The notes beneath the pieces were generated by a model, which saw only the letters and a list, made by a program, of their open reading frames with translations, did no database searches and had not been told where the DNA came from. Of a stretch of DNA of 64,000 nucleotides, positions 10,342 to 37,351 are shown in pieces. Position numbers and translations under genes: made by a program. Source of the stretch: Candidatus Heimdallarchaeum aukensis (GTDB lineage Archaea > Asgardarchaeota > Heimdallarchaeia > Heimdallarchaeales > Heimdallarchaeaceae); the NCBI GenBank assembly GCA_021513695.1, contig CP084166.1, positions 928,001 through 992,000 on the forward strand. The letters run 5' to 3'. Numbering within the stretch: position 1 is the stretch's first letter; each line of letters begins with the position of its first letter.

Positions 10342-13300
10342 ATTTTCACACTACTTAGTTCAGCTTAAACCTCGTACTTGCTTGCAGAAGCACCTAGCAC
10401 GTAGTAATTTTCACACTACTTAGTTCAGCTTAAACCTTTCGATAATGATGGTGTTAGTGGTGAAGTGCAAAATTTTCACACTACTTAGTTCAGCTTAAAC
10501 AATCTATCAAGTGTCTCATTTTTTACGTTTCCTAGATTTTCACACTACTTAGTTCAGCTTAAACAATAACGTTTGAACATTGTTCTCGAATTCTTCATAA
10601 ATTTTCACACTACTTAGTTCAGCTTAAACAGTTGATGAAGGTGTGACAAAGTGTGACACTTCGATATTTTCACACTACTTAGTTCAGCTTAAACATTCTA
10701 CTTTTTTCTCAATCAATTTACAAGTTAGAGCGTCATTTTCACACTACTTAGTTCAGCTTAAACAGAACTAGGATCAGTCTCGGTCCATTCAGAAACTCGA
10801 TTTTCACACTACTTAGTTCAGCTTAAACTCCTAAAATAATAACTGATCCTAAGAATCCTGATAAGATTTTCACACTACTTAGTTCAGCTTAAACCCAGAG
10901 TGAGAACGGGGTTATAGGTCAATAATAAAGAAATTTTCACACTACTTAGTTCAGCTTAAACTTTGTTTTGATTTTTCTTTCTTTCAGGATAGCATCAATT
11001 TTCACACTACTTAGTTCAGCTTAAACAAATGGCTAAAAGAACCACAAGAACTTCAAGAAAATAATTTTCACACTACTTAGTTCAGCTTAAACTTTACATT
11101 TATATAACTTCCCCAGAAGATTATATATAATTTTCACACTACTTAGTTCAGCTTAAACCAGCAATGTTGGCACATCTCCCCACTCTACTTTCTCATTTTC
11201 ACACTACTTAGTTCAGCTTAAACATTACTCTTTTTTCTTTACAAAACATTTATATATTATATTTTCACACTACTTAGTTCAGCTTAAACGTTATATTAAG
11301 TGTTAAATAGTTCTCTTTTCCTTCTTATTTTCACACTACTTAGTTCAGCTTAAACGTAAAAAAATGAGTAATTCAGAAGAACATTTTCACACTACTTAGT
11401 TCAGCTTAAACTGAAAACCTTATAGGCTGGCGTGAATACGCAAACCTAATTTTCACACTACTTAGTTCAGCTTAAACACGTTTCCAAGTAAATCTGTTAC
11501 TATTTCAAATTTATTTTCACACTACTTAGTTCAGCTTAAACTGATTTACGTTACCCTCATGTTTGTTATGTTTATTTATTTTCACACTACTTAGTTCAGC
11601 TTAAACGAATTTACTTTACACAATGATCGTGCTGATACTGTTTTATTTTCACACTACTTAGTTCAGCTTAAACACATTGCTTGATATTGGAATTTTATAT
11701 CTTAATATATTTTCACACTACTTAGTTCAGCTTAAACCTGACTTTTTTGGAGAATTTGGTTTCGCTGATAGTAATTTTCACACTACTTAGTTCAGCTTAA
11801 ACTAGAAAATTGTATTCTTCAAACTATACGTATAGATATTCCATTTTCACACTACTTAGTTCAGCTTAAACCTTAAATTATCTTCAAACCAATCAGAATA
11901 ATAAAGTTCATATTTTCACACTACTTAGTTCAGCTTAAACATAAATATCGCTATTTCTCCTTTCTTAACTGTTCTTAATTTTCACACTACTTAGTTCAGC
12001 TTAAACCATAATCTATCATAAAAAAGTCTCCTATATCATAAGTATTTTCACACTACTTAGTTCAGCTTAAACACTATTTTTCCACCTTCTCTTTCTTCCC
12101 ATTCTCTCTTATTTTCACACTACTTAGTTCAGCTTAAACTTTGTACTTCACTGTGCTTAATATCTCTACTTATACTATTTTCACACTACTTAGTTCAGCT
12201 TAAACTTTATCACCCCTCATATATTTATTATACTTCCTAAAATTTTCACACTACTTAGTTCAGCTTAAACCGTACACCCATTCCTTAGGTGTCCAGTCTA
12301 ATACTTATTTTCACACTACTTAGTTCAGCTTAAACTCACCTATATATATGATGTTCTAACACATAAAAATCATTTTCACACTACTTAGTTCAGCTTAAAC
12401 CTGACTTTTTTGGAGAATTTGGTTTCGCTGATAGTAATTTTCACACTACTTAGTTCAGCTTAAACTAGAAAATTGTATTCTTCAAACTATACGTATAGAT
12501 ATTCCATTTTCACACTACTTAGTTCAGCTTAAACCTTAAATTATCTTCAAACCAATCAGAATAATAAAGTTCATATTTTCACACTACTTAGTTCAGCTTA
12601 AACATAAATATCGCTATTTCTCCTTTCTTAACTGTTCTTAATTTTCACACTACTTAGTTCAGCTTAAACCATAATCTATCATAAAAAAGTCTCCTATATC
12701 ATAAGTATTTTCACACTACTTAGTTCAGCTTAAACACTATTTTTCCACCTTCTCTTTCTTCCCATTCTCTCTTATTTTCACACTACTTAGTTCAGCTTAA
12801 ACTTTGTACTTCACTGTGCTTAATATCTCTACTTATACTATTTTCACACTACTTAGTTCAGCTTAAACTTTATCACCCCTCATATATTTATTATACTTCC
12901 TAAAATTTTCACACTACTTAGTTCAGCTTAAACCGTACACCCATTCCTTAGGTGTCCAGTCTAATACTTATTTTCACACTACTTAGTTCAGCTTAAACTC
13001 ACCTATATATATGATGTTCTAACACATAAAAATCATTTTCACACTACTTAGTTCAGCTTAAACCTCATAACAAATGGATAAAGACTATTGAAATCAAGAA
13101 TTTTCACACTACTTAGTTCAGCTTAAACCAATTATTATCGCAACAGCCATCTCAAGATCACCTTATTTTCACACTACTTAGTTCAGCTTAAACGTTTTTG
13201 AATAACAGTCTGTGAAGAGAGAGAAGCAAATTTTCACACTACTTAGTTCAGCTTAAACGTCTTATTTCGTTAAAATCTTCAACAATAGCTTGTTGATTTT

Positions 13301-16300
13301 CACACTACTTAGTTCAGCTTAAACACTTTAGACGTGAAAAATTGGTTAATGGTTTTAGGTGATTTTCACACTACTTAGTTCAGCTTAAACGTAAAGAGAA
13401 AAGAAGAAAGAAAAAGAACGATAAAAGAATTTTCACACTACTTAGTTCAGCTTAAACGAGATATTGCAACATTTTGCTACAAAAATATCTAAAAAATTTT
13501 CACACTACTTAGTTCAGCTTAAACTTTGAAGTATCTGTGATGTCTTTTGTGACTACTCCTGATTTTCACACTACTTAGTTCAGCTTAAACCTTACAGAGG
13601 GAGAATATGCGGGACAATATATTATTACATTTTCACACTACTTAGTTCAGCTTAAACATAGAAGAAGAGCTCATTACAACTTTCCTTTTCCGTGATTTTC
13701 ACACTACTTAGTTCAGCTTAAACAAGCGTCAGTAGCACCTACAAGCGGGACATTCACAAGATTTTCACACTACTTAGTTCAGCTTAAACTCTATTTTATA
13801 TACTTTCTCTAATTCTAAACTTCTACTATTTTCACACTACTTAGTTCAGCTTAAACAGTAGAAATGAAGGGGGGGTTAGGAGCTAGAAAAAATTTTCACA
13901 CTACTTAGTTCAGCTTAAACCAATTCTGTTAATTTGTTTATTTCTTCCCATCTTTCATTTTCACACTACTTAGTTCAGCTTAAACGATAAATGGTACAAT
14001 CGTTTGAACCCTTTTAGAAGAAATTTTCACACTACTTAGTTCAGCTTAAACAAGGTTATCGCCTTTACATTTAGGGTTCTCACAAGTAATTTTCACACTA
14101 CTTAGTTCAGCTTAAACTATTTATGTAAAAGTCCTCTTCATCTATTATTAAACTATTTTCACACTACTTAGTTCAGCTTAAACACTATAACTTTAAGCAC
14201 TTGTTTTACTATATCGAAAAATTTTCACACTACTTAGTTCAGCTTAAACAGTCCGTTCTCGTTTCTTATTTCTTCGTCATCGGTTCTAATTTTCACACTA
14301 CTTAGTTCAGCTTAAACATGATTTTGTATAGTTTCCTCTCTTTATAAATGAAAATTTTCACACTACTTAGTTCAGCTTAAACTCAGCGTTTTGTAGTTCT
14401 ATTTTTCGTAAGTCGTCATATTTTCACACTACTTAGTTCAGCTTAAACCATTTCTCCACCTCTTTTTCATTTCTACTTGTTCTAATTTTCACACTACTTA
14501 GTTCAGCTTAAACTTGCTCTCTAAATATATTGCATACATTCCTTTTCTGATTTTCACACTACTTAGTTCAGCTTAAACTGAACAAACACTCACAATCTTA
14601 TCTAATCTTTCAAACGTATTTTCACACTACTTAGTTCAGCTTAAACAAACTGAAGTCATGTCAAAGTTAGAAGCCCAACTATATTTTCACACTACTTAGT
14701 TCAGCTTAAACGAGCTTTTACTGAAGCAGAACTAAAAAGAAATACCCCAAATTTTCACACTACTTAGTTCAGCTTAAACCATTGAATTCCTCTTTCTTCC
14801 TCTGCACAATAGTGAATTTTCACACTACTTAGTTCAGCTTAAACACGGTGCTCTGAAATGATGGAGTTTGAACAAAAATATTTTCACACTACTTAGTTCA
14901 GCTTAAACGTACAATTATGTTAAATATAGAAGAATAAAAAGGAATTTTCACACTACTTAGTTCAGCTTAAACGATAAAAATGGTAGAAGAGCATAAGAAG
15001 AATGAGCTTAATTTTCACACTACTTAGTTCAGCTTAAACTCTATCCTCCTTTTTTTTGGTTTGCAGTTTATACAAGAATTTTCACACTACTTAGTTCAGC
15101 TTAAACTTCATAGAACTTGATGTTAGGGTTAGGAAAAACCTCATTTTCACACTACTTAGTTCAGCTTAAACTGTAGCTTTGAAAGTTTATCATAGTTATG
15201 TGAGAATTATTTTCACACTACTTAGTTCAGCTTAAACAGATGAAATTTCCGAATTAGTTACTTTATTTCCGTCTGATTTTCACACTACTTAGTTCAGCTT
15301 AAACATTGGAGCTCTTCCCTTGACAATACAAATATTACAAATTTTCACACTACTTAGTTCAGCTTAAACGAACGATTACAGTATAGAACAGACGAATATT
15401 ATTATATTTTCACACTACTTAGTTCAGCTTAAACATCAGCAACTCTTTGCTGGTTCTCAAGAGCTTTTTGATTTTCACACTACTTAGTTCAGCTTAAACG
15501 TGAAAAGTCTCTTGTGTAGGTATATCGTGCTGCGTATTTTCACACTACTTAGTTCAGCTTAAACAGGTTCTCACTTTGGACAAAAGAAGCAAGTTTAGAC
15601 GAATTTTCACACTACTTAGTTCAGCTTAAACTTTCTCCTGAAAGAAGATCGTATGGTAACGAATACGTATTTTCACACTACTTAGTTCAGCTTAAACTCT
15701 ACCACAATGAAGATCATGAGAAGAAACCCACACATTTTCACACTACTTAGTTCAGCTTAAACATTTTTTTCACCCATAATCATTTCCACCCCTCTTTGAT
15801 TTTCACACTACTTAGTTCAGCTTAAACTCAAGGTCAAAATGGGGAAAAAGGTCGAACTATGGTATTTTCACACTACTTAGTTCAGCTTAAACAACGCTTG
15901 TTTTGGGGTTTCACACCCCAAAATCTTATTTTCACACTACTTAGTTCAGCTTAAACTCTGCTTTATCTTCTTCTTTTTCACAATCTCTATGAATTTTCAC
16001 ACTACTTAGTTCAGCTTAAACTTTGCACCTATTATATTTTAAGAGTAAAGAATATAATTTTCACACTACTTAGTTCAGCTTAAACCAGAGAAAGACGCGG
16101 GTTCAATTTCGTATAAGTAAGTAATTTTCACACTACTTAGTTCAGCTTAAACTATCTTCTTTATCTCTTTTTCTACTAACTCATTCTTATTTTCACACTA
16201 CTTAGTTCAGCTTAAACTAGATAAAGGAAGTTTAGATAAAGCGATACAAGAATTGCTAAATTTTCACACTACTTAGTTCAGCTTAAACAAGCGAGTTCAG

Positions 16301-16420
16301 TATCTTCTTTTTCCTCATAGACCTTAATTTTCACACTACTTAGTTCAGCTTAAACATTTATTCCTGCTATACGCAATAGACTTGAAAACGTATTTTCACA
16401 CTACTTAGTTCAGCTTAAAC
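10342..16420 (-). CRISPR. CRISPR array 1, about 93 repeats / 92 spacers (hand count), 29-bp repeat, transcribed on the minus strand
   Basis: Plus-strand unit ATTTTCACACTACTTAGTTCAGCTTAAAC is the reverse complement of the array 2 repeat. Spacers are mostly 34-40 bp, with one of 27 bp. The length 6079 bp equals 93 x 29 plus 92 spacers averaging about 36.8 bp. The leader is at the 16421 end. Confidence 0.98.
11738..13063. repeat. Perfect tandem duplication (2 x 663 bp) of a block of 10 spacer-repeat units inside array 1
   Basis: 11738-12400 and 12401-13063 read identically. Both run from spacer CTGACTTTTTTGGAGAATTTGG... to spacer TCACCTATATATATGATGTTCTAACACATAAAAATC. Confidence 0.9.
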
Positions 16421-16520
16421 GAAGTTTATTTTCTTTTCTAGCTATATTTTTCTCTCGTTTTGTCACTCACCTTCCTGGTCGACCTCCAATAAGGTATTAA
16501 CTTTATAAATATTGACCAGA
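16421..16520 (-). promoter_or_regulatory. Leader of CRISPR array 1 (TATA-like ATTTATAAAG, GGTCGACC palindrome)
   Basis: The reverse complement is nearly identical to 28872-28971 upstream of array 2. The core ATTATTGGAGGTCGACCAGGAAGGTGAGTGACAAAA and the junction CTAGAAAAGAAAATAAACTTC are identical. Confidence 0.75.
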
Positions 16521-16569
16521 TACATAAACGTTTACCTTATAAACAATGACTAGTACCATTAAATTTGCT

Positions 16570-18075
16570 TTATTTTTTTGCTATTTTCTCTGCAATTACA
16601 GGATGTTTTTCGTTTACTGCATACCAGAATTTTGCCTTTCCTTTTAAATTTGGTTTTATTATTATCCATCCCTTTTTTTCCATATCTACTAGGATTCTTG
16701 GTTTATTCATTTTGAATTGATTTATGTTTATTTTTTTATGATCATGGTATTTATTTTCTTTTTGCATCCATTCATTTATTTTCCTGAAGCTCCCTGCAGC
16801 TAATCCACCTATCAAGATTGACCCATCCATACAGAGTTTGTATTCTTTTGGTTTTTCCAGTACTGACATGTATTTATCTATCATAAAGTCTAAAATTATT
16901 TCATGTTCTCCCTCTGGCCTTTCGAACATTTTTTCTTTTGTTCCTTCTTTAATTATTTTATTTTTTAGTTTGTCTAGTTGACTATTTTTTTCAAGAAGCA
17001 ACCTATTTTTTTCATGTGGGTCCCATAAATTTATTTTCTCAATTAATATTTGTTCTAAGTTTTGATACTCTCTTTCAATTACTAATTTTGTACTTATTTT
17101 CTTGAATATTTTTCTCTGGTAATTTTGTGGCAGGTAGTATGATCTTCTTCCTATAGAGTGATATAGAATTGGATTTAGGGTATTAACTATATAGTTTACT
17201 AGAGCTATTTTTTCTTCCATGTTTAGCTCCGAAAAGATATTTTCTTCTATTATTGATACTATTCTTTGTATTAGAGTTTTAATCATGAAAGCTGTTAGAA
17301 TAGCTTTTTTTACTCTCTTTTTGAATAATTCATTTTTCTTTTTGTAATGTACTATAGCATAAGTATCAATTCCGAGGGATAAAACGTCTATTTTTTCCTT
17401 TGAGCTATATATCTTTTCTATGTTTTTTTCTTCTAACTTTTGAAAATGAACACTAGGTAATTCAATTATTGAGATGACATTTGAAGATTCTAAATAAATA
17501 TTACTAAATTCTTTAAAGAATGCTCTAAGCAAACAAAATTTTACCTGTTCATTTTTCTTTTTTTTGCCTTTTTCATTTGTAAATATTTTTATTATTTCCC
17601 TTCGTAAATTTTCTAAACTCTCTTCTTCCAGAATTTTTTCACTTAAAATTACTTTCTTTTCTACTTCAGCTATTAATGATGGATAAATGTTTATCTTTTT
17701 TAATCCATTTACGATTTTAACTACTGTTCTTGGTTCATTCCAATAAACAGTTCTTGTTTCAATTGGAATAAGCGGTCTTAAAGGCACTCTTCTAAAAAAT
17801 AAATATTTTTTAGCGTAATAGTACAGATATGAATCATTAGTCAATTTCAGAAAAAGACTTGAGTAGTATGGAATGAAAATGTCGAACTTTTTTCTACCTT
17901 TTCTTATTACCATTTTTATTCTTTTTTTGAACTCTGTTTCTGATTTAAGGAAAGAGAGTTCTTTTCTAATCTTTTTTGAATAAAGGATTTCTGGAATGGC
18001 ATAAAACTGATGGAAAGAGATTTTTATTGTATTCATTTTATTCTCCCTAATACCATTTTTGAAGAGTAGTATCAT
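16570..18075 (-). CDS. Hypothetical ~490-aa protein, no family recognised; second gene of the wHTH operon upstream of the array 1 leader
   Basis: Long uninterrupted ORF. The probable true start is ATG at 18036, preceded by a GGGAG SD that overlaps the TAG stop of the upstream gene. Lys/Glu-rich, with no P-loop and no Cys clusters. Confidence 0.6.
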   Translation of the reverse strand: MILLFKNGIRENKMNTIKISFHQFYAIPEILYSKKIRKELSFLKSETEFKKRIKMVIRKGRKKFDIFIPYYSSLFLKLTNDSYLYYYAKKYLFFRRVPLRPLIPIETRTVYWNEPRTVVKIVNGLKKINIYPSLIAEVEKKVILSEKILEEESLENLRREIIKIFTNEKGKKKKNEQVKFCLLRAFFKEFSNIYLESSNVISIIELPSVHFQKLEEKNIEKIYSSKEKIDVLSLGIDTYAIVHYKKKNELFKKRVKKAILTAFMIKTLIQRIVSIIEENIFSELNMEEKIALVNYIVNTLNPILYHSIGRRSYYLPQNYQRKIFKKISTKLVIEREYQNLEQILIEKINLWDPHEKNRLLLEKNSQLDKLKNKIIKEGTKEKMFERPEGEHEIILDFMIDKYMSVLEKPKEYKLCMDGSILIGGLAAGSFRKINEWMQKENKYHDHKKININQFKMNKPRILVDMEKKGWIIIKPNLKGKAKFWYAVNEKHPVIAEKIAKK

Positions 18076-19525
18076 ATCTTGAAGTTGGCAGATTTACTCT
18101 TTTAGTATACATAAAGCTGGTTATAAAAAAATAAGGTTCTTCTTCTTCAAAAATCGAAGAAAACAAATCTATGAAATTAATTACTAATTCATTGGGTATT
18201 CTTACTGTAACAATTAGTCCCTTTTCATCTGTTATTAAATTAGTAAACGGTTCAGAATAAACTTCTGGAAACAGAGATAATCTATCATGAATCTCTTTTT
18301 GATCCACTTTTTTCTTAAATATAATCATCACATCGTTAGTTCCAAAAATTGGTATTATATTTACTCTTTTTATGTATAGTTGTTCATTTGTGAAGTGTTT
18401 CAAATATTTTCTTATTGTGCTCTGTGAAATATTAGTTTCCTTCTCTATTCTACTTACAGTCAAATCTCTATTCTTAATTATATATTCAAGTATCTTAAGG
18501 CCAGGCTTAGTTAATTTTAATTCACTTTCTTTTGTGTCTTCGAATCTAGGTTTCAATTCATTCTTTGTTTTACTCTTATTATGAAGTGCAATTGCAATTT
18601 CGCTTATCGAATAATTCCAATTTTTGTTTTTATAATCATATTTTGAATAATCAAACGTTGTTATCTGTTCTTCTCTATGCAGAACTAAAATTTCATATTT
18701 TGTTATTTCTTTTTTCTTGATTGACAAGTCAAAAAATTCACTTATTCTCCTACATATCTCCTTCAACAAGGGCACTGGGAATGAGTAGTAGAGTAACAAT
18801 GCCTTGCATGATGTATTCAGTGTCATCGATTTTCTTAAGAACATTTTAGGGAAATTTTCTTTTTTATGTATTGAAGAGAGTTCATCAAATCCATAAACAA
18901 TCACAAGAAGCAAGACAAAGTTTGTCTTTTTCAAATTCAAACTTATTCCTTCATAGATTATTCCTTTATCAAAGAGTAATTTTTTTGTTCTTGTTATATT
19001 TCCTGCATCTTTATTCAAAATTTTACTTAATTCTTTGGTTGAAGTAATTTGATATTTGATCATTGCTTGTAGTAATGAAAACTCTGCTTTTGTTAGACTA
19101 GGCTTGATTCTACTCCTTAATGTAAAAAAGAATCTCAGGAAAAGAGACCAATTTTCTAATAGTATTTTATTTTTTTTATATTCTAAAATAGAAAGTAATT
19201 TATTAGCTGTTTCTTCATCTTGAAGAAACTGTTTATATGACGAGAATATTACATATTTCAAATCATTATATTCTTTCTCTGTACTATATTCAGACCAAAA
19301 ATTCAACCATTTTTCTAATTGTTGTCTAGTTATGCTTTTTTTTCCTTTATTTTTCTGAAAATAAAGTATTCTATATATTTTAAAACATATTAAATCCCAA
19401 GCAGGTGTTTTTGGAACTATATTTAGTTCTTCAACTTTTTTTTTAAAAAATTTAAAATGTGATCCTAAGATTTCTCTCCCTTTCTCTAAAATTACTTCTC
19501 TTTCTTTTATTTGAGAATATTTCAT
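18047..19525 (-). CDS. 492-aa protein with two Lrp/AsnC- or MarR-like winged-helix segments; paralog of 34762..36246
   Basis: wHTH-like segments LTKAEFSLLQAMIKYQITSTKELSKILNKDAGNITRTKKLLFDKGIIYEG and LTKPGLKILEYIIKNRDLTVSRIEKETNISQSTIRKYLKHFTNEQLYIKRVNIIPIFG. Colinear similarity to the 494-aa ORF along the full length, for example LSLFPEVYSEP vs LSFFPEVYSEP and W.NFW..YS. Confidence 0.65.
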   Translation of the reverse strand: MKYSQIKEREVILEKGREILGSHFKFFKKKVEELNIVPKTPAWDLICFKIYRILYFQKNKGKKSITRQQLEKWLNFWSEYSTEKEYNDLKYVIFSSYKQFLQDEETANKLLSILEYKKNKILLENWSLFLRFFFTLRSRIKPSLTKAEFSLLQAMIKYQITSTKELSKILNKDAGNITRTKKLLFDKGIIYEGISLNLKKTNFVLLLVIVYGFDELSSIHKKENFPKMFLRKSMTLNTSCKALLLYYSFPVPLLKEICRRISEFFDLSIKKKEITKYEILVLHREEQITTFDYSKYDYKNKNWNYSISEIAIALHNKSKTKNELKPRFEDTKESELKLTKPGLKILEYIIKNRDLTVSRIEKETNISQSTIRKYLKHFTNEQLYIKRVNIIPIFGTNDVMIIFKKKVDQKEIHDRLSLFPEVYSEPFTNLITDEKGLIVTVRIPNELVINFIDLFSSIFEEEEPYFFITSFMYTKRVNLPTSRYDTTLQKWY

Positions 19526-19724
19526 CCAAGTTTAAATTTATTGTCAGTTTAAATTTTTTTTGTAATACTGACCTTGAACTATTGTCCAAAATAGACAAAG
19601 CTTATCCTTTTAGTTTTATTCTATTTCAAGCCTTCTAAGTAGATAGTTTTTAAATTACTTCACAGACATTTTCGATTTTTTGTTGTCCAGAGATGTATTG
19701 TCACAATTAAAAAGAGGTGACAAA

Positions 19725-19799
19725 ATGAAAAAGGATTATTATCTTCCTCCTCCTGAAGATGATGAACCAAATGATCCAGAACCATTTCCTTTTCCTTAA
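19725..19799 (+). CDS. Candidate micro-ORF (24 aa, MKKDYYLPPPEDDEPNDPEPFPFP) with a strong Shine-Dalgarno
   Basis: GAGGTGA (19714-19720) lies 4 nt before the ATG. This resembles the GGTGA-N5/6-ATG context of bona fide genes in this window, with a slightly shorter spacer. It is not in the ORF track because it is too short. Confidence 0.3.
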   Translation: MKKDYYLPPPEDDEPNDPEPFPFP

Positions 19800-19809
19800 A
19801 AGGGATAAA

Positions 19810-23785: not shown

Positions 23786-23791
23786 TAATAG

Positions 23792-27002: not shown

Positions 27003-27031
27003 GTTCAAGCTAAACTAAGTAGTATGAAAAT
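27003..27031 (+). repeat. Solitary degenerate CRISPR repeat (26/29 identical to the array repeat) between cas3 and cas4
   Basis: GTTCAAGCTAAACTAAGTAGTATGAAAAT vs GTTTAAGCTGAACTAAGTAGTGTGAAAAT, in the same orientation as the cas genes. No second repeat follows. Confidence 0.8.
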
Positions 27032-27073
27032 TAGAGGTAGAAGTAATGGTATTAAATTCTTGGTGAAATTGTA

Positions 27074-27604
27074 ATGGTGGAGTTAAATCATATTAGCATT
27101 AAGAATACTGATTTTGCAGTAACTGGAGTAATGGTTCAATATTTATTTTCATGTAAAAGAGAATTGTGGTTTTTTACCAAAAAAATTGATTTCAACAAAG
27201 AGGATCAGAACATTCAAATTGGCAAAATAATACATGAAACAAGCTATAAACGAAATAAAAAAGAGTTTGACTTAGGTTTTGTAAAATTTGACTTAATTGA
27301 AACAAAAAACAGGATAATAATTTCTGAAATAAAAAAATCTTCAAAACTTTTGGAACCTGCAAAAATGCAACTTTTGTATTATGTTTACATTTTAAGTAAA
27401 ATAACTGAAAAAGAAGTAGAAGGAGAAATTAGAATTCCAAAAGAGAGAAAAAAAGTAAAGATTCAATTGCAAAACGAAGAAGAAAAATTAATTCAAAAAG
27501 CTTTGAGAGAGATTAAAGAAATTTCCTTACTGGAAAGACCTCCCAAAGCAGAAAAAAAATTTTATTGTAAGAATTGCGCTTATTACATTTTTTGCTGGGT
27601 TTGA
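27074..27604 (+). CDS. cas4: Cas4 (RecB-like nuclease with Fe-S Cys cluster)
   Basis: 176 aa. One N-terminal Cys (FSCKRELWF) plus a C-terminal CKNCAYYIFC. Sits before cas1. SD GGTGA at 27062-27066. Confidence 0.85.
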   Translation: MVELNHISIKNTDFAVTGVMVQYLFSCKRELWFFTKKIDFNKEDQNIQIGKIIHETSYKRNKKEFDLGFVKFDLIETKNRIIISEIKKSSKLLEPAKMQLLYYVYILSKITEKEVEGEIRIPKERKKVKIQLQNEEEKLIQKALREIKEISLLERPPKAEKKFYCKNCAYYIFCWV

Positions 27605-28591
27605 GTGAAAAAAATGAAAGATTCTATTTACATTACAAAGGAAGGAGTAATTTACAGAAAAGATAATACTATTGTTTTTCAAAATCAAGAACAAAAGCAT
27701 ACTTTACCTATCGAAGCAGTGAAAGATATATATTGTATTGGCAAAGTAACTATAAGATCTGGAGCAGCTTATCAACTAATGGAAAAAAGGATTCCTGTAC
27801 ATTTTTTCGGAAAATATGGACACTATAGAGGAACATTACAACCAAAACAAGATCTAATCTCTGGAGAAGTAATAGTAAAACAAGTTCAACATTATACTGA
27901 TTACATAAAAAGAATAAAAATTGCAAAAGAGATGTTTAAAGGAATAAAACACAACATTCTCTGGGTTCTAAAATATTACAAATCAAAAAGAGATATAGAA
28001 GATGTAGTTGAAAAAATTGAACATGTTAATATTCAAGAAGAAATATTAAAAATAAATACATTAAGAAGTTTAGAAGGTCAAATATGGGAACTTTTCTATC
28101 AAGCTGCTGATACAATTTGTCCTTCATGGGGTTTTAGAAAAAGGACTAGAAGGCCTCCTTTAGATGAAGGAAATGCACTAATATCTTATGGAAACTCAGT
28201 TCTATATGGAAAAACAATTTCTGAAATATTCAAAACTTATCTTCATCCTGCAATTTCGTTTATACACGAACCAAGTGAAAGAAGGTACTCTTTAGCCTTA
28301 GATCTAGCTGATATTTTCAAACCAGTAATAGTTTTTAGAACAGTCTTCAGGCTTATAAATCAGAAAATAATTTCAAAGAAAGATTTTGAAAAAGAAGTAG
28401 GAGTCCAAATTTCAGAAAAAGGAAAAAAAGTATTTATCACAGAATTAGAAAAAACATTCACAACTACAGTAAGACATCCAAATCTGAAAAGAAATACCTC
28501 ATACCAGTTTTTGATAAGACTTGAAGGACTAAAAATAATGAAACATGTTCTAGGAGATAAAAAATATGAAAGCTTTAAAGCATGGTGGTAG
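27605..28591 (+). CDS. cas1: Cas1 integrase
   Basis: 328 aa in the canonical position, with the conserved C-terminal acidic block SLALDLADIFKP. Probable start ATG at 27614. Confidence 0.9.
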   Translation: MKKMKDSIYITKEGVIYRKDNTIVFQNQEQKHTLPIEAVKDIYCIGKVTIRSGAAYQLMEKRIPVHFFGKYGHYRGTLQPKQDLISGEVIVKQVQHYTDYIKRIKIAKEMFKGIKHNILWVLKYYKSKRDIEDVVEKIEHVNIQEEILKINTLRSLEGQIWELFYQAADTICPSWGFRKRTRRPPLDEGNALISYGNSVLYGKTISEIFKTYLHPAISFIHEPSERRYSLALDLADIFKPVIVFRTVFRLINQKIISKKDFEKEVGVQISEKGKKVFITELEKTFTTTVRHPNLKRNTSYQFLIRLEGLKIMKHVLGDKKYESFKAWW

Positions 28592-28857
28592 AGATATACG
28601 TGATAATCGTTTATGACGTGGGAGAAGAAAGAGTAAATAGAATACATAAATTCTTGAAAGCATATTTAACATGGACACAAAATTCAGTATTTGAAGGAAA
28701 AATAACAAAAGCAACATTAGCTCAAATAAAAACAGGAATAAAAAGCATAATAAAAAAAGAAGTCGATTCAATAAAAATATTCAAAATAAAAGGAGAACAA
28801 TGGATGAATATTGAAATAATGGGAGTAGAAAAAAATAAGTTTCAGAATATAATTTAG
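28582..28857 (+). CDS. cas2: Cas2
   Basis: 91 aa. N-terminal beta-strand YVIIVYDV typical of Cas2. Overlaps the cas1 end and is followed directly by the leader. Confidence 0.85.
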   Translation: MVVEIYVIIVYDVGEERVNRIHKFLKAYLTWTQNSVFEGKITKATLAQIKTGIKSIIKKEVDSIKIFKIKGEQWMNIEIMGVEKNKFQNII

Positions 28858-28971
28858 GTAAATCGTAAGAATCAGGTCGACATTTATAAAGATGATACAT
28901 TATTGGAGGTCGACCAGGAAGGTGAGTGACAAAAGGAAAGAAAAATATAACTAGAAAAGAAAATAAACTTC
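28858..28971 (+). promoter_or_regulatory. Leader of CRISPR array 2 (TATA-like ATTTATAAAG at 28882-28891; GGTCGAC at 28875 and GGTCGACC at 28908)
   Basis: Homologous to the reverse complement of 16421-16520. Ends ...AAAATAAACTTC directly before the first repeat. Confidence 0.75.
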
Positions 28972-31900
28972 GTTTAAGCTGAACTAAGTAGTGTGAAAAT
29001 TTCTTTTGTTCTTTGGAGGAGGACAACCTTCAACGAGTTTAAGCTGAACTAAGTAGTGTGAAAATCAGTCTGGGTATATTTTATGCCCCTCAATATTTTG
29101 AGTTTAAGCTGAACTAAGTAGTGTGAAAATTGCTGGCTGGACTGGGCATAATTTCCAGAAATCTCTGTTTAAGCTGAACTAAGTAGTGTGAAAATAGTAA
29201 AATAGCTTTTATTTATTCCGTAGTAATATATGGTTTAAGCTGAACTAAGTAGTGTGAAAATCGCTATTGTAGTCGAGTTAGAAGATGGAGAGATTGAGTT
29301 TAAGCTGAACTAAGTAGTGTGAAAATAAATATATTGTGATGAATTGGATAAAAGAACTAAAAGTTTAAGCTGAACTAAGTAGTGTGAAAATAAACCAGAA
29401 GGAATGACTTTCATTCCTGCTACAGGTTTAAGCTGAACTAAGTAGTGTGAAAATTAATCAGAATAAAATGCTCATAATCATTGGTATAATAGTTTAAGCT
29501 GAACTAAGTAGTGTGAAAATGCAAAGCAATGAAAGGAGTGTTTTGTCTGGTGAGGTCGTTTAAGCTGAACTAAGTAGTGTGAAAATCAATCAGATTTGAG
29601 GGACAAAATAGTCCCGTTGGGACGTTTAAGCTGAACTAAGTAGTGTGAAAATACTGAAGAACAAGAAAAGAATATAAAAAGAACCAAGGTTTAAGCTGAA
29701 CTAAGTAGTGTGAAAATTAATATATCTATCGACTTGAACAAATTAGTTGAAGAGGGTTTAAGCTGAACTAAGTAGTGTGAAAATGGTAAATCCCCCAACA
29801 ATCCTGAAAGTGTTAAATTTGTTTAAGCTGAACTAAGTAGTGTGAAAATATTGTTCTTTTTTCAAATCATCTATTTTTTTTGCTCGTTTAAGCTGAACTA
29901 AGTAGTGTGAAAATTACAATTGACAGTAGTCACACACAAACCATTTAGGTGTTTAAGCTGAACTAAGTAGTGTGAAAATAAAATTCTTCGTGTGTCATAT
30001 AAAAGGCATCATCAGTTTAAGCTGAACTAAGTAGTGTGAAAATAGATCAGAGAGACTTGGGTAGAGTTAGTGAGATCTATGTTTAAGCTGAACTAAGTAG
30101 TGTGAAAATTACATATTTTTGAATAATTGAGACATGCATATGACGTTTAAGCTGAACTAAGTAGTGTGAAAATACAGCTCTCAACTGATAAGAGCGTTCT
30201 TTTTCATTGTTTAAGCTGAACTAAGTAGTGTGAAAATTTGTCAAAGTGTTTGTATAAGTGTCAATATAATCTGTTTAAGCTGAACTAAGTAGTGTGAAAA
30301 TATGTCTTTAGAGACTTGTTGAAGAGCAGGATTGTCAGGTTTAAGCTGAACTAAGTAGTGTGAAAATCAAGCATTTCTGCGATAACGACACCAGAACCAT
30401 TAAGTTTAAGCTGAACTAAGTAGTGTGAAAATTAAATGTGGTCGTGTATCGTTATATGGTGCTCTGAAATGTTTAAGCTGAACTAAGTAGTGTGAAAATA
30501 TATCTCCAGAGTGCCAAATTTCAACATTTGACACGTTTAAGCTGAACTAAGTAGTGTGAAAATCCAATTAATTAAGCCGCTGTTTCAAAAGGTGGTTCAG
30601 TTTAAGCTGAACTAAGTAGTGTGAAAATTTCGATGGATCCATAAAGGTAAATTAGGATCCCAAAAGTTTAAGCTGAACTAAGTAGTGTGAAAATAAAAAG
30701 CCAAGAGATGGATTGATGAACAAAAAAACCGTTTAAGCTGAACTAAGTAGTGTGAAAATCAGTCTGGATAGAGTTTGTGCCCATTAATATTCTGAATTGT
30801 TTAAGCTGAACTAAGTAGTGTGAAAATAGAGTAGGATTGTCAGATTGATCCATAAGGTATAGAAGTTTAAGCTGAACTAAGTAGTGTGAAAATGGTGACG
30901 CCACAAGCGAGGCATTCCCAAGCTCAATAGTTTAAGCTGAACTAAGTAGTGTGAAAATGGATTAAAAAATATGTCTCCTCTCGCTCGTTACGGGTTTAAG
31001 CTGAACTAAGTAGTGTGAAAATAATATCTTTAGATACCTGTTGAAGAGCGGAGTTGGTTTAAGCTGAACTAAGTAGTGTGAAAATCCAAAATTCTCGACT
31101 GCCTCTAAAGCAAATGAGAAAGTTTAAGCTGAACTAAGTAGTGTGAAAATTTTTTTTTCTGTCTGTTATTTCTTCTACTTCTTCTGTTTAAGCTGAACTA
31201 AGTAGTGTGAAAATTTATGATATGCGAACGTTTGCATGTTTGCGAATACAAGTTTAAGCTGAACTAAGTAGTGTGAAAATAGAAAACGTTTGGCTCGAAT
31301 GGATTGGTTTCTATGTCGTTTAAGCTGAACTAAGTAGTGTGAAAATTTGCTAAACCCGCCGCATAATCTTTTTTCTTTTATTTTGTTTAAGCTGAACTAA
31401 GTAGTGTGAAAATTAACCTGCAGAAATATCTTGTAAAATCTTGAATTCAACCTTGTTTAAGCTGAACTAAGTAGTGTGAAAATTAGTTTTGATTTGTAAA
31501 AGACGGATATCCACTTGTTGTGCTGTTTAAGCTGAACTAAGTAGTGTGAAAATATCAACACGTGGGTTTCTATCCAAATCTAATCCTCTGTTGTTTAAGC
31601 TGAACTAAGTAGTGTGAAAATAGCGATATAAAGAAGTTATCCTTTTCAGTATAATAAGGTTTAAGCTGAACTAAGTAGTGTGAAAATAAATTTCTAAAAA
31701 TATTGAAAGGTCAAAATCAAGATTGTTTAAGCTGAACTAAGTAGTGTGAAAATCTAACATGTGTAAGATTCATTGGGCCAATCCAAATTGTTTAAGCTGA
31801 ACTAAGTAGTGTGAAAATCTAAACACAATTTGCATGATGCCATGCTTGTTTTTTGTTTAAGCTGAACTAAGTAGTGTGAAAATGTTGGTTGTGTATAGTG

Positions 31901-33583
31901 TAAATAGATTTTTCTGATTGGGTTTAAGCTGAACTAAGTAGTGTGAAAATTTCTACTTCAAAGAATGAGCACCAATAGTTAAACCAGTTTAAGCTGAACT
32001 AAGTAGTGTGAAAATGCTTCATCTGCTAAAAGTTGTAGTTGTTCATAAAGGTTTAAGCTGAACTAAGTAGTGTGAAAATTGTGCTACATATATACACACC
32101 TATATCCTGTTTATCGTTTAAGCTGAACTAAGTAGTGTGAAAATATCCTGATAGGTGAGTCCTACAGGAGAAAGAAAAAGTTTAAGCTGAACTAAGTAGT
32201 GTGAAAATATCCTGATAGGTGAGTCCTACAGGAGAAAGAAAAAGTTTAAGCTGAACTAAGTAGTGTGAAAATCCCAATAGCATCCTCTTTTATCTGGGGC
32301 TTGGTTTATGTTTAAGCTGAACTAAGTAGTGTGAAAATCTGTGATTTCTGCGGAAATAAACATGTGACGGAAAGTTTAAGCTGAACTAAGTAGTGTGAAA
32401 ATGCAACTCTTTCCGTCCAGCGCACTAAAGCTGCTTTTGGGTTTAAGCTGAACTAAGTAGTGTGAAAATGTTTTTCATGGTAGCTTGCTACCAAAAATTT
32501 ACTTAAAAGTTTAAGCTGAACTAAGTAGTGTGAAAATGAGACTGTTAATAGCGAAGTCAGATTCCTCAAAAGGTGTTTAAGCTGAACTAAGTAGTGTGAA
32601 AATTTGTCTTTACACAGGGCATTCTCAGTTCTGGAGGAAGTTTAAGCTGAACTAAGTAGTGTGAAAATCACATAAACAAATTAGAAAGCGAAATAACCAC
32701 AGTTGTTTAAGCTGAACTAAGTAGTGTGAAAATCAATATTCTTCATCTTCTTCTAAATCATACAATAGCGTTTAAGCTGAACTAAGTAGTGTGAAAATAG
32801 AAAAGAGGAACCGTTGTTCTTAAAGGTAAAAATCGTTTAAGCTGAACTAAGTAGTGTGAAAATAAAGAGTATTGAACTCCTGGTTCAAAACTGATTTTGC
32901 AGTGTTTAAGCTGAACTAAGTAGTGTGAAAATTAATTGCTTTTTTGTCTGCATGACTTGGTAATTCAAAGTTTAAGCTGAACTAAGTAGTGTGAAAATTT
33001 CAAGGTGAGACCAACGATCCTGGTTACTTCGGTTGTTTAAGCTGAACTAAGTAGTGTGAAAATAATATGTAATTAAATAAGTTTTTATTGTGGTAAAATG
33101 TTTAAGCTGAACTAAGTAGTGTGAAAATACATTAAGAAAACGCTTACCATCTAAAGAAACAATCGTTTAAGCTGAACTAAGTAGTGTGAAAATTCATAAG
33201 TTGACCAATATTCAGAAATTACATAACGTTTAAGCTGAACTAAGTAGTGTGAAAATGAAAGCGTTTAGAATTGGTGGCGGTTCTGGTTGCAGGTTTAAGC
33301 TGAACTAAGTAGTGTGAAAATTACTGGGCAATGGAAAAAAGCTGTTGCCGCATTCAAGTTTAAGCTGAACTAAGTAGTGTGAAAATTAACTCACTCGCTC
33401 ACCCTCAGAGAGAGCCACAAACGTTTAAGCTGAACTAAGTAGTGTGAAAATTAATTTACGTCATGACTATGATGCGACCCCCAACGAGGTTTAAGCTGAA
33501 CTAAGTAGTGTGAAAATATTTGACTACTAGGTTTAGGTTTGAATATGAACCAGAGTTTAAGCTGAACTAAGTAGTGTGAAAAA
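28972..33583 (+). CRISPR. CRISPR array 2, about 71 repeats / 70 spacers (hand count), 29-bp repeat GTTTAAGCTGAACTAAGTAGTGTGAAAAT
   Basis: Regular units of about 65 bp. The last repeat ends ...GAAAAA, a single change at its final base. The length 4612 bp equals 71 x 29 plus 70 spacers averaging about 36.5 bp. Confidence 0.98.
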
Positions 33584-33606: not shown

Positions 33607-34407
33607 TTATTTGTAGAACAAATGTGAAATTGAACAATAATATCTTTTCAATTCAATTAATTCTTTTTCACTTTGTAATTTATTTTTCTGCTTTTCTATT
33701 TCAGAAAAAACAAATTCTACATCCTCAACATCTGTAAGATCTAATATATTCATTATTGTTTCATTTACTATTCTATCCCAAACTGTTATTCTTTTTATGC
33801 ACTTGTTAAAGAAGTTGCTAATTGGATTTTGAAGATTAATCAATTTTCTTAATTCTATTAATGAAATTAATTGTTCATTCTCAAAATTCTTTAGATATCT
33901 TCTATTCATTTCTATTATAACTTCAATAATAGCTTTGATATTCTCTTCATTTATTTTATTTCCTCTTGATTCTTTTATTTTCGTCTTTTTATAAGAATTC
34001 ATCAGTAGATTAACCACAGTTACTAAATGTAAATCAAATTCCTGATTAATCGTTTCTTTTTTGTCTATTAACAAGTCTCTTGCTTTTAGGCCAAGCATCC
34101 AGGAAAAAAGTCCACTTAATTGTGAATTTACTAATAATTTACTATTTTCTTGTGATGTTTTAATTTCTCTAAGTTTGTCTTGATAGAAGGGATTAAACAT
34201 ACCAAAAACGTGAGATACAATCAAGTTGTCAATAAAGAAAGATTCAATTTGTTTTTTAATTTCTTTCTCTTCTGGATTTTTTGAACTTTTTTTCATCTTT
34301 TCAGCTATTTTTTTTAAATCAGTAAAATAGTCACATAATTTCTTATTTGAACTAGCCAAAAATTCGAAATCACTATTACCCATATCGTTAATATATCTCT
34401 TCAACAC
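33607..34407 (-). CDS. Hypothetical protein (266 aa, Lys/Glu-rich, no family recognised)
   Basis: Uninterrupted ORF ending 24 nt from the last repeat of array 2. Divergent from the 494-aa wHTH paralog. Confidence 0.5.
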   Translation of the reverse strand: MLKRYINDMGNSDFEFLASSNKKLCDYFTDLKKIAEKMKKSSKNPEEKEIKKQIESFFIDNLIVSHVFGMFNPFYQDKLREIKTSQENSKLLVNSQLSGLFSWMLGLKARDLLIDKKETINQEFDLHLVTVVNLLMNSYKKTKIKESRGNKINEENIKAIIEVIIEMNRRYLKNFENEQLISLIELRKLINLQNPISNFFNKCIKRITVWDRIVNETIMNILDLTDVEDVEFVFSEIEKQKNKLQSEKELIELKRYYCSISHLFYK

Positions 34408-34761
34408 ATCACATCCTGCCTAAAAGAAAGATTTCGTGTATTTCCTGTTTGTTTTAACTGTTTTGATTTAACAATAGGCTTTTTCGTGATCAGAGAATTT
34501 CTTATCATTTTTTTCACTTTAGGAATGATGATTAATATTGATTAATAGATTGAATCTTTTTTATCTTATATTTATTAGATTTTATTTTTCCTAAAAAGTT
34601 ATAAAATTCACACTAAAAATTATAACTTTGTGTTCTCTCTTTCCTGTTGTTAAATACACATTTTTGCTCCAAAGCGAATTATTTTATTCCAAACGGCTAG
34701 AAACAGAAGGTTAATTTCGTTTAAGAAAAGTTCTTAATAGGTTGAATTATTTAGTGTTTAG

Positions 34762-36246
34762 ATGGTTGATTTTGGTCTTATTGATCTTCAAGAAGCAATG
34801 AATGAAGCTGAGACCATATTAGGTGACAAATATACTTATTTTCAGTCATTAATTACAAAATATTCTGTAAAGCCAAGCAAGCCATTTTGGGATATAATTA
34901 TTTTTCTTACAGGTTTAAAGGTATACAAAGATACTGAACTATTTAACAAATGGATTAATTTTTGGAACAAGTATTCAGTATCAAGAAAATACAAGAACCT
35001 TATTTATCAGCCTTCTGCTTCTTTTTCTCCTTTCTTAACTGAAGAAGAAGCAGAAAAAAAGTTCACTAAACTGCTGAAAATGCTTTATAACCGCGATAGT
35101 GAACTTACCGAAGATCAACTTTGGACTTTATTTTTTTCTCTTTTTTATAAGCTTCGAAATGCAATTAAACCTAAATTCAGTAAGGTTGAATTTAGAGTAT
35201 TTCTAACTATTCTTAGCGAACAAACAACTATTCTTTCTACCCTCAACAAAAGTTTGATGATGGCAAAATCCAATCTTTCTGCATACATAAAAAGAATTAG
35301 AGAGAAAAAAGTTATTTTCGAAGGTTTTTTACTAAACCTAAGAAAATTTAACCTAAGTATTTTCTATTCAAGGATTAAATATCCTTTGTCATGTAATGAA
35401 AAAATTACTAAAATTATTCCTAGAGGAAAATTCTTAAGAAGAGTTTATGAGGGTCATATTGCATGTAATTATACTTTTCTGAGCTATTTAGCACCAAATT
35501 TAGATGAAATTAAAAAAGAATTTCTAAAAAACAAAAAAGAGATTTTGGAAGTTATTCCAAATGCTGAAATAGATTTTTTTAGAAGTGATAGAAATAGTAG
35601 ACTATATTCTTTCAATTACAGTAATTATGATTTCAAAAAGGGAAAATGGAATTTTGATATAGATGACATAAATTATAATTTATTTTGGCTTAATAATACA
35701 AAGAATAGCAAAACAGACAATTTAGTTAAGATAATTGAAAATTTTCCTTCTAACGAAGATTATGAACTAAAATTTGATAAAGAAACACTAGACATCCTAA
35801 GGTTTTTCTACTTAAATCCACAAAAGTCAGTTTCACAGATTATTGAAGAAATGGATGTAAGAGAAAGCAAAATAAGAAAAGCTATCAGTGACTTTGAAGA
35901 AAATCAAATTTTAAGAGCGAGAGTGAACCCTGCACCAGTATTTGGTTTGTCTAACATTATTCTCTATATTAAAGAGAAAAAAGACAAATTGAGAAAAATA
36001 CATGAAGAGCTTTCTTTTTTCCCAGAAGTTTATAGTGAACCTTTAGTTAATATCGAGACACAAGAGGAAGAGCTAATGATTATTGTAAGAGCTCCTGAAG
36101 CAATAACATTTCAAGTTGTAGAAGCTCTTTATCAAAAATATGAAAAAAAGATAGTGGGTTTATTCCTTATTGATCAAATGTACTCAACAAGGCAGGATCT
36201 TCCTCTAGAGAACTTTGATACTTTATTTAAGAGATGGAAAATATAA
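34762..36246 (+). CDS. 494-aa double winged-helix protein, paralog of 18047..19525
   Basis: Colinear matches to the 492-aa protein: ILGDKY/ILGSHF, KPFWDIIIF/TPAWDLICF, WINFWNKYS/WLNFWSEYS, IKPKFSKVEF/IKPSLTKAEF, NYSNYDFKKGKWNF/DYSKYDYKNKNWNY, LSFFPEVYSEP/LSLFPEVYSEP. Confidence 0.65.
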   Translation: MVDFGLIDLQEAMNEAETILGDKYTYFQSLITKYSVKPSKPFWDIIIFLTGLKVYKDTELFNKWINFWNKYSVSRKYKNLIYQPSASFSPFLTEEEAEKKFTKLLKMLYNRDSELTEDQLWTLFFSLFYKLRNAIKPKFSKVEFRVFLTILSEQTTILSTLNKSLMMAKSNLSAYIKRIREKKVIFEGFLLNLRKFNLSIFYSRIKYPLSCNEKITKIIPRGKFLRRVYEGHIACNYTFLSYLAPNLDEIKKEFLKNKKEILEVIPNAEIDFFRSDRNSRLYSFNYSNYDFKKGKWNFDIDDINYNLFWLNNTKNSKTDNLVKIIENFPSNEDYELKFDKETLDILRFFYLNPQKSVSQIIEEMDVRESKIRKAISDFEENQILRARVNPAPVFGLSNIILYIKEKKDKLRKIHEELSFFPEVYSEPLVNIETQEEELMIIVRAPEAITFQVVEALYQKYEKKIVGLFLIDQMYSTRQDLPLENFDTLFKRWKI

Positions 36247-36484: not shown

Positions 36485-37351
36485 GTGAAAAAAATGAGTG
36501 ATGATAATAATTTTTCTTCTGATTTAAATAATGCCGATAGTGATTTTCTTTTTTCTTCCTCTTCTTTTGAGTCAAACCTTATTAATGGTGAAAAGGTCTT
36601 TAACGATTTTCTTATTCCTTATCGAACTATTTCTTTTTTTGGTCTTGTAGTCTTGACTTTATCCTTTCTTTTGCCTTTGATAGTTATTTTAGTTGTTCAG
36701 TTTGGTACTGATTTTTCTAGAGCTGTTAAATACACTATTGATGTCATAATGGGTTTGTGGCTATTTTTCACTTTCTTGTTTTTCTTTTTCATTGGTTCAA
36801 GTAATCAACGACTTATTATTACTAACTTTCGTTTAATTTGCATTAGAGAGTATTTTCCTTTTTTCTTTAAGAAGTTTAGAATTCTCAAGGAATGTTCTAC
36901 TGATATTAATAGTGTTACTCTTGTTGAGCGCAAAAAGTTTTCTCGTCCTGAACCTTTTATGTTTTTCACTGGATTGTTGATGTTTTTTGTTAGTTTATTA
37001 CTTTTTATTTCTATTAAGATTGTTGAGCAGTTCAACATTTCTTCTTTCATTCAATATAAGAAAACCATTCTTATTAGTAGTTCAATACTTTTGATTCTTT
37101 CTTTTATGCTTATTATTTATGCTATATTCTTTTTCTCCAAGAATATTTACAAACTAGCTTTTTCCATTGGTCAAACTTATCCTCTACCGCCTGTTATTGA
37201 CAGATTATTTTCAAGGAGTTTGAAAGCTGGTTATTGGGTAATTTACGGTTGGGAAAAAGATTCAAAAAGGATGTATGAAGAAGCTCCTCAAATACTATTT
37301 TCTCTTAAATTTGATAAGCATCTTCAACAGAATAATTTGAAGGAGCATTAA
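36485..37351 (+). CDS. Integral membrane protein, unknown function
   Basis: 288 aa with several hydrophobic helices. The track start GTG lies inside an SD-like AGTGA; the probable start is ATG at 36494. Confidence 0.6.
   Translation: MKKMSDDNNFSSDLNNADSDFLFSSSSFESNLINGEKVFNDFLIPYRTISFFGLVVLTLSFLLPLIVILVVQFGTDFSRAVKYTIDVIMGLWLFFTFLFFFFIGSSNQRLIITNFRLICIREYFPFFFKKFRILKECSTDINSVTLVERKKFSRPEPFMFFTGLLMFFVSLLLFISIKIVEQFNISSFIQYKKTILISSSILLILSFMLIIYAIFFFSKNIYKLAFSIGQTYPLPPVIDRLFSRSLKAGYWVIYGWEKDSKRMYEEAPQILFSLKFDKHLQQNNLKEH

What the first reader, a model, noticed from the sequence alone, without database searches (positions are those of the whole stretch)
33607..36246. Second copy of the double-wHTH protein beyond array 2: a diverged paralog pair brackets the cas operon and array 2
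Seen: the 494-aa ORF 34762..36246 (+) is colinear with the 492-aa ORF 18047..19525 (-). Matching blocks include KPFWDIIIF/TPAWDLICF, WINFWNKYS/WLNFWSEYS, IKPKFSKVEFRVF/IKPSLTKAEFSLL, NYSNYDFKKGKWNF/DYSKYDYKNKNWNY, LSFFPEVYSEP/LSLFPEVYSEP and the tails DLPLENFDTLFKRW/NLPTSRYDTTLQKW. Identity is only moderate, so this is an old duplication, not an assembly repeat. The two copies point outward, and together they enclose the cas operon and array 2. The second copy is paired divergently with a different unknown gene (33607..34407), which ends 24 nt from the last repeat of array 2. Inference: two diverged copies retained at one CRISPR locus argue for a locus-linked role, or for borders of an ancestral mobile cassette.
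Basis: partly seen in the sequence, partly recalled or inferred. Interest (0 to 1): 0.6.

Follow-up and report, generated by a model that had tools for sequence, protein, structure and literature searches.

The report
CRISPR-linked double Lrp-like regulator paralogs
Two distantly related copies of an Asgard-archaeal protein built from two fused Lrp/AsnC-type DNA-binding modules flank a type I-B CRISPR-Cas cassette; one copy and an unknown partner gene travel inside CRISPR cassettes of several types, while the other stays at the border of a site where cassettes are swapped, which makes them candidate new CRISPR accessory or regulator genes.

The parts
10342..16420 (-). CRISPR array 1: 93 identical 29-nt repeats and 92 spacers, transcribed on the minus strand. 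Includes an internal 663-bp duplication of 10 spacers.
   Evidence: the spacer-length spectrum equals 'C2' in Wu et al. source data
16421..16569 (-). Leader of array 1. It abuts the stop codon of X501 and shares about 70 nt plus a TTTATAAA box with the leader of array 2.
   Evidence: read directly
16570..18075 (-). X501: orphan partner gene, 501 aa by the longest ORF; homologs start at its Met14. Conserved immediately downstream of family members in 16 further loci (17 with the window). No Pfam or PDB match.
   Evidence: AF2 failed (pLDDT 36)
18047..19525 (-). ORF A: 492-aa tandem Lrp/AsnC-like (double wHTH) protein, the copy carried in the cassette. Sister to the copy in the I-B cassette of L026.
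19582..19598 (.). Palindrome TTGTCCAAAATAGACAA, 57 nt upstream of the A start codon. Candidate operator (a lead only).
   Evidence: the only match in the window (0.5 expected); a similar site lies 50 nt upstream of the L026 homolog
19726..19800 (+). Conserved 24-codon micro-ORF (MKKDYYLPPPEDDEPNDPEPFPFP) with a GGTGA Shine-Dalgarno-like sequence, between A and cas6.
   Evidence: conserved in L026
20023..28857 (+). Type I-B cas operon: cas6, cas8b (TM1802), cas7, cas5, cas3, cas4, cas1, cas2. A solitary degenerate repeat lies at 27003-27031.
28858..28971 (+). Leader of array 2.
28972..33583 (+). CRISPR array 2: 71 repeats and 70 spacers; the last repeat is degenerate (…GAAAAA).
   Evidence: the spectrum equals 'C5'
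33607..34407 (-). Y266: 266-aa ORF related to the N-terminal HD region of a Cas3 from another cassette type, with HD changed to 'SHVFG'. Broken by a 70-nt deletion in the sister strain. Probably a decaying remnant. Homology with the sister strain begins inside its 3' end, at about 33620-33640.
34762..36246 (+). ORF B: 494-aa tandem Lrp/AsnC-like protein, the resident copy in the flank. Orthologs (54-99% identity) lie next to I-D and III-A systems in relatives.
36485..37351 (+). [not shown]

Best explanation
A and B belong to an Asgard-restricted family of ~490-aa DNA-binding proteins. Each consists of an N-terminal helical domain followed by two fused Lrp/AsnC-like modules (wHTH + RAM-like ba-bb-ab domain), that is, a covalent pseudo-dimer. 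The ancestral unit is a two-gene operon, family gene -> X (an orphan ~490-aa protein). In Heimdallarchaeaceae this operon has been built into CRISPR-Cas cassettes of several subtypes. In this window the cassette runs array 1 - X501 - A - cas6..cas2 - array 2, and A-X belongs to it. B is an unpaired copy with its own promoter. It sits in the conserved flank just outside the right end of the cassette, at a chromosomal site where whole cassettes have been exchanged (I-B here, I-D in a near-identical strain, III-A in H. endolithica). So the 'bracketing pair' came together through cassette replacement, not through a local duplication. Inferred mechanism (not shown): A, probably together with X, binds the divergent A/cas6 promoter region and acts as a small-molecule-responsive regulator of cassette transcription. 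B is a resident regulator of the same type that outlasts the cassettes.
Against: No experiment or expression data bears on function; the regulatory role rests on fold plus neighbourhood. Two well-supported clades of family->X pairs in other Heimdallarchaeota have no cas genes or arrays within about 10 kb, and distant members in Heimdall and Odin MAGs stand alone among housekeeping genes, so the pair does not need CRISPR-Cas. The best structural match is an enzyme (siroheme decarboxylase), not a regulator. B itself gets no Pfam hit. The palindrome occurs once where 0.5 is expected, which is not significant on its own. The array next to X has a different orientation in the window and in L026. 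X has no recognisable fold. B's constant position next to CRISPR could reflect only a stable insertion hotspot. B versus its ortholog in the sister strain gives pN/pS ~0.67 from only 21 substitutions, and that ortholog lacks the first 12 codons.
Confidence: 0.5

Rival explanations
1. Hitch-hiking at a hotspot. The family->X operon and B have a cellular role unrelated to CRISPR (for example metabolite-responsive gene regulation or chromatin organisation). They lie next to CRISPR-Cas only because this chromosomal neighbourhood is a preferred landing site for cassettes.
Against: A-X is not part of the flank. It differs between the I-B and I-D cassettes at the same site and co-varies with cassette type (A groups with L026). 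One MAG has two CRISPR loci, each with its own diverged pair. In L025 the pair lies between cas6 and the effector genes, on the same strand as the effector genes, and that arrangement is kept at 46% identity in L034.
Confidence: 0.25
2. Adaptation or array host factor. The pseudo-dimeric Lrp-like protein, with X, bends or wraps leader DNA and directs Cas1-Cas2 integration or array transcription, a role analogous to bacterial IHF or to Sulfolobus Cbp1.
For: Lrp/AsnC proteins are DNA-bending and DNA-wrapping proteins (established knowledge). In the window X501 ends directly at the leader of array 1. In III-A loci B lies between cas6 and the DUF2797-cas1-cas2-cas4 adaptation module.
Against: The leader-adjacent position is not conserved: L026 has the trailer end of the array next to X. 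The candidate palindrome is absent from both leaders. The L028 pair is at the effector end of the operon, far from cas1.
Confidence: 0.1
3. Cassette mobility or border function. Family/X proteins mediate the exchange or inversion of CRISPR cassettes, which is the reader's 'borders of a mobile cassette' idea.
For: Family copies lie at or near cassette ends in the window, L015 and L028. Cassettes are demonstrably exchanged at this site. The inverted arrays flanking the cassette could support recombination.
Against: No nuclease, recombinase or transposase domain is detectable in A, B or X. There are no relatives on viral contigs or among viral structures. Pairs without CRISPR sit in stable contexts. 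No terminal inverted repeats or target duplications were seen at the border.
Confidence: 0.08
4. The protein is an enzyme of the NirDL/AhbAB siroheme-decarboxylase type rather than a DNA-binding protein.
Against: Sequence identity is only 11-12%. A and B match no Pfam model at E <= 0.1 other than HTH-type ones, so none for the siroheme-decarboxylase domains. Sequence-level matches are to true regulators. No haem d1 or alternative-haem genes are adjacent in any locus. The extra 130-aa N-terminal domain is absent from NirDL.
Confidence: 0.04

Closest known systems
Lrp/AsnC (FFRP) transcription regulators, e.g. Pyrococcus FL11/PH1519, LrpA, Sulfolobus ST1022
   Same: Each half of the protein is a wHTH followed by a ba-bb-ab RAM-like domain. 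Profile hits reach E 2e-4 and Foldseek probability is ~1 per module. The palindromic TTG..CAA-type candidate site resembles archaeal Lrp boxes (recalled knowledge, not tested).
   Different: Two modules are fused in one 490-aa chain and preceded by a 130-aa helical domain. There is no Pfam AsnC_trans_reg (RAM) hit. The gene is obligately paired with an unknown ~490-aa partner gene. The family is restricted to Asgard archaea.
NirDL / AhbA-AhbB siroheme decarboxylase (PDB 4czc, 4ch7)
   Same: The same overall architecture, a covalent tandem of two Lrp/AsnC-like modules. It is the best structural match.
   Different: NirDL is an enzyme of haem d1 / alternative haem synthesis. Identity is 11-12%. 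There is no haem-pathway context, no sequence-family match, and the query has an additional N-terminal domain.
CRISPR-associated wHTH regulators Csa3 / CasR (CARF-wHTH) and Sulfolobales Cbp1
   Same: These are DNA-binding proteins encoded inside CRISPR-Cas loci, some divergent from cas operons. The second wHTH of A and B gives weak matches to the wHTH part of Csa3/CasR models (A: E 4.6e-8 for Csa3 and 5.8e-5 for CasR; B: E 3.6e-5 for Csa3).
   Different: There is no CARF domain. The presumed sensor domains are RAM-like instead. The protein is much larger, has a different architecture, and has a partner gene X. Regulation is not demonstrated.
[quoted passage not shown] 2022, PMC8813620)
   Same: It is the same locus: array 2 has the 70-spacer length spectrum of C5, array 1 that of C2, and the H. 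endolithica III-A array fits C6-right.
   Different: The paper's main text and the supplementary files searched do not mention Lrp; its figures could not be read. The family, its partner X, their presence in several cassette types and the distinction between the cassette-borne and flank copies were not found there.

Membership tests
Lrp/AsnC (FFRP) family | N-terminal wHTH of the HTH_AsnC/HTH_24 type | tested here: met
   A: Pfam HTH_24, 27.9 bits against a cut-off of 21.9, at aa 343-381. B: no Pfam hit, but the model has wHTH units at aa 141-191 and 340-390 and the family profile matches Lrp/AsnC chains.
Lrp/AsnC (FFRP) family | C-terminal RAM / AsnC_trans_reg ligand-binding domain recognisable by sequence (PF01037) | tested here: not met
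   [not shown]
Lrp/AsnC (FFRP) family | Sequence-specific DNA binding and effector-modulated oligomerisation | not testable with these tools
   The only evidence is a candidate palindrome upstream of A.
Siroheme decarboxylase NirDL / AhbAB | Sequence membership in the siroheme-decarboxylase families, and a haem d1 / alternative-haem gene context | tested here: not met
   A and B match no Pfam model at E <= 0.1 other than HTH-type ones. Identity to 4czc is 11-12%. No haem-pathway neighbours occur in any of the loci examined.
Csa3 / CasR CARF-wHTH regulators | N-terminal CARF domain | tested here: not met
   PADLOC matches cover only the wHTH part of the Csa3/CasR profiles. The model shows no Rossmann-like CARF domain.
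CRISPR-associated (accessory) gene, operational definition | Recurrent adjacency to cas genes or arrays in phylogenetically distinct lineages and with different subtypes | tested here: met
   I-B (window, L026/27), split-Cas8 I-B (L025, L015, L034), I-D (L028/29) and III-A (L001/3/4). Caveat: two other clades are not CRISPR-linked, and no genome-wide statistic could be computed.
CRISPR-associated (accessory) gene, operational definition | Functional contribution to adaptation, expression or interference | not testable with these tools
   There are no expression or genetic data for these uncultured archaea.
Type I-B CRISPR-Cas (the neighbouring system) | cas8b (TM1802) with cas7, cas5, cas3, cas6 and cas4-cas1-cas2 | tested here: met
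   Pfam: Cas_TM1802 E 4e-96, Cas_Cas7 E 1e-65, Cas5d, Cas3 HD + helicase, Cas6. The remaining genes were assigned from ORF order and tblastn.

The most novel reading that the evidence does not exclude
The family->X pair is a true, previously unrecognised Cas accessory module of Heimdallarchaeaceae. It would be a RAM-domain (metabolite-sensing) counterpart of the CARF-wHTH regulators, working with an entirely novel 490-aa partner, that has been co-opted into type I-B, I-D and III-A cassettes and controls when the host expresses or updates CRISPR immunity. B would be a chromosomally fixed copy that governs whichever cassette occupies the swap site.
Probability: 0.35. Interest if true: 0.7.

Novelty: new variant of a known kind. 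Interest (0 to 1): 0.55.

Why it matters

Tried and rejected
1. Word-indexed homolog searches with A and with X501 each returned only one near-identical metagenomic protein. The exhaustive profile search and the pattern scans were needed to find relatives.
It failed (pLDDT 36). X also has no Pfam, PDB-sequence, PADLOC or meaningful NCBIfam match and is not a remote homolog of the family.
3. The 442-aa gene that occupies A's position in H. endolithica is not a diverged family member (hhalign probability 0.1). It is a Csx1/Csm6 CARF-HEPN protein (E 4e-102).
4. Y266 and the 254-aa gene in the equivalent position in L015 are not homologous.
5. A broader 19-sequence alignment was too diverse for the pattern scans.
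6. The IMG/VR sequence scan and the BFVD fold search found no viral relatives.
7. afdb50 was unavailable.
8. The palindrome search gave only one site in the window, which is not significant by itself. The inverted repeat upstream of B is conserved only in the near-identical strain.
10. The idea that A-X is always read into an array leader was rejected, because L026 has the opposite array orientation.

Full report
OBSERVATION. The two ORFs are present as described. BLASTP of ORF B (34762-36246, +, 494 aa) against ORF A (18047-19525, -, 492 aa) gives 31% identity and 50% positives over 503 columns, E 4e-67, colinear from end to end. Between them lie a complete type I-B operon and array 2. The operon is cas6, cas8b/TM1802, cas7, cas5, cas3, cas4, cas1, cas2 at 20023-28857. 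Array 2 spans 28972-33583, with 71 repeats of GTTTAAGCTGAACTAAGTAGTGTGAAAAT. The divergent neighbour of B (33607-34407, -, here 'Y266') ends 23 nt after the last repeat. Array 1 spans 10342-16420, has 93 repeats and is transcribed on the minus strand. Its leader abuts the X501 stop codon and is homologous to the leader of array 2. A therefore lies inside the CRISPR-Cas locus.

ORGANISM AND PUBLISHED CONTEXT. B is 100% identical to a hypothetical protein of Ca. Heimdallarchaeum aukensis, on a 3.08-Mb contig. Wu et al. 2022 (PMC8813620) described seven CRISPR-Cas systems (C1-C7) in the two closed Heimdallarchaeum genomes and a 'complete local operon swap' between C5 and C6 with conserved flanks. 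The spacer-length spectra in their source data match array 2 (C5: 70 spacers) and array 1 (C2: 92 spacers, including the single 27-nt spacer). The H. endolithica array found here (37-nt repeat, ~40-nt spacers) fits C6-right. This locus is therefore the published swap site. 'Lrp' does not occur in the paper's main text, and the supplementary files returned nothing for the CRISPR subtype terms searched. Its figures could not be read.

WHAT THE PROTEINS ARE. An AlphaFold2 model of B built from a 10-sequence family alignment is confident (pLDDT 83, pTM 0.81). It shows:
- a helical N-terminal domain (aa 1-133);
- a wHTH (141-191) followed by a ba-bb-ab domain (198-284);
- a linker;
- a second wHTH (340-390) followed by a second ba-bb-ab domain (396-475).

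THE PARTNER GENE. The two genes usually overlap by 4 nt or are separated by 0-10 nt (L008-13, L018-20, L022, L025, L026, L028, L031-34). The neighbour-joining trees of the two families are congruent. X has no Pfam, PDB, PADLOC or credible NCBIfam match and is not related to the family itself. It could not be modelled. Family->X is thus an ancient two-gene operon, and A-X501 in the window is one instance of it.

LINKAGE TO CRISPR-CAS. The loci recovered fall into these groups.
- L026/L027 has array - cas2..cas6 (-) | family (+) - X (+) - array, with the same repeat as the window. This is the same cassette at 64-70% nucleotide identity.
- L028/L029 has a type I-D operon (large subunit, Csc2, Csc1, Cas3, Cas6, DUF2797, Cas1, Cas2) divergent from its own family->X pair.
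- L025 has cas1-DUF2797-cas6 (-) | family -> X -> split cas8b, cas7, cas5, cas3 (+).
- L034 keeps the cas6 | family -> X arrangement at 46%/40% identity to L025.
- L015 has X -> the same effector genes -> array -> a 254-aa gene (-) -> a second family copy (+). This mirrors the window's cas - array - Y266 (-) - B (+).
- H. endolithica and two relatives (L001, L003, L004) have X (-), csx1 (-) | cas10-csm2-5, cas6, B ortholog, DUF2797, cas1, cas2, cas4, array.
- Two of these loci come from one MAG.
By contrast, two tight clades of family->X pairs (L008/9/10/13/20 and L011/12/22/31-33) have no cas genes or arrays within the available flanks of up to 10 kb. Their neighbours are housekeeping or unknown genes. 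Distant members stand alone. The CRISPR-linked copies sit on long branches and the unlinked copies on short ones.

MECHANISM (INFERRED). Three facts point the same way. The fold is that of ligand-responsive DNA-binding proteins. In the cassettes with a divergent layout (window, L026, L028, L025, L034) the family gene is separated from the first cas gene by a 400-540-bp promoter region. The A/cas6 intergenic region of the window and that of L026 share a palindrome, TTGTC-N7/8-GACAA, 50-57 nt upstream of the family gene. It is unique in the window, though a single hit is not significant. The two regions also share a 24-codon micro-ORF with a Shine-Dalgarno-like sequence. The most economical reading is a cassette-encoded, effector-responsive transcription regulator that works with X, with B as a resident paralog. 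I put about 0.5 on this. The rivals are a CRISPR-independent role at a cassette hotspot (0.25), a leader or adaptation host factor (0.1), a role in cassette mobility (0.08) and a NirDL-like enzyme (0.04). They are set out with their evidence in the Rival explanations section.

NOVELTY AND VERDICT. The paralogy, the architecture, the X partnership, the multi-subtype CRISPR linkage and the cassette-versus-flank distinction all rest on tool results. The function is inferred. Literature searches found no description of this family or of X as CRISPR-linked genes. It is best filed as a new variant of a known kind, namely CRISPR-locus-encoded DNA-binding regulators and Lrp/AsnC-like proteins, with an unexplained partner protein. 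Interest is moderate (0.55).

Noticed in passing
window 27003-27031: A solitary degenerate CRISPR repeat (GTTCAAGCTAAACTAAGTAGTATGAAAAT, 3 mismatches) lies in the cas3-cas4 intergenic gap, between the interference and adaptation genes. It could be a relic or a Cas6 processing or regulatory site.
   Followed up: no
window 11738-13034 and 32145-32243: Array 1 contains a 663-bp internal duplication of ten consecutive spacers (11738-12371 = 12401-13034). Array 2 contains one spacer duplicated in tandem.
   Followed up: partly
window 19726-19800 (+); L026 about 9400-9470 (-): A conserved 23-24-codon proline/acidic micro-ORF (MKKDYYLPPPEDDEPNDPEPFPFP) with a GGTGA ribosome-binding-like site lies between the family gene and cas6 in both I-B cassettes. 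It is more conserved than the surrounding intergenic DNA.
   Followed up: partly
window 33607-34407 (-); L028 13110-13831: Y266 resembles the HD-domain region of a Cas3 from a different cassette type (L015) more than the window's own Cas3. It lacks the HD dyad and is frameshifted by a 70-nt deletion in the sister strain. It appears to be a decaying remnant of an earlier cassette.
   Followed up: yes
L028 13051-13079: The strain carrying I-D keeps one degenerate I-B-type repeat (5 mismatches, in the orientation of array 1) exactly at the swap junction. This suggests an I-B array was there before, and that the inverted arrays may allow the cassette to invert.
   Followed up: partly
L001 11651-12577; L025 578-1489; L028 1146-2006: A ~300-aa DUF2797-like (zinc-ribbon) gene is fused into the cas6 - cas1 - cas2 adaptation block of III-A, I-D and split-Cas8 I-B loci in these archaea. 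It is another possible lineage-specific accessory gene.
   Followed up: no
L006/L017 329-5078: Three tandem paralogs of the family (491, 499 and 513 aa) are followed by an RPA-like OB-fold protein, with no X and no cas genes, in an uncultured archaeon MAG.
   Followed up: no
window 336-764 and 43335-44033: Transposase-related ORFs (an IS630/IS481-type HTH, and an rve integrase core) lie on both sides of the CRISPR region, about 10 kb from its ends.
   Followed up: no
window 1095-9894: Left of array 1 lies a cluster of CobN/Mg-chelatase-type genes (ChlI/ChlD-like AAA+VWA, CobN) and a FecCD/ABC/periplasmic-binding-protein transporter. It is not related to the NirDL-like fold of A and B as far as could be seen.
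   Followed up: no
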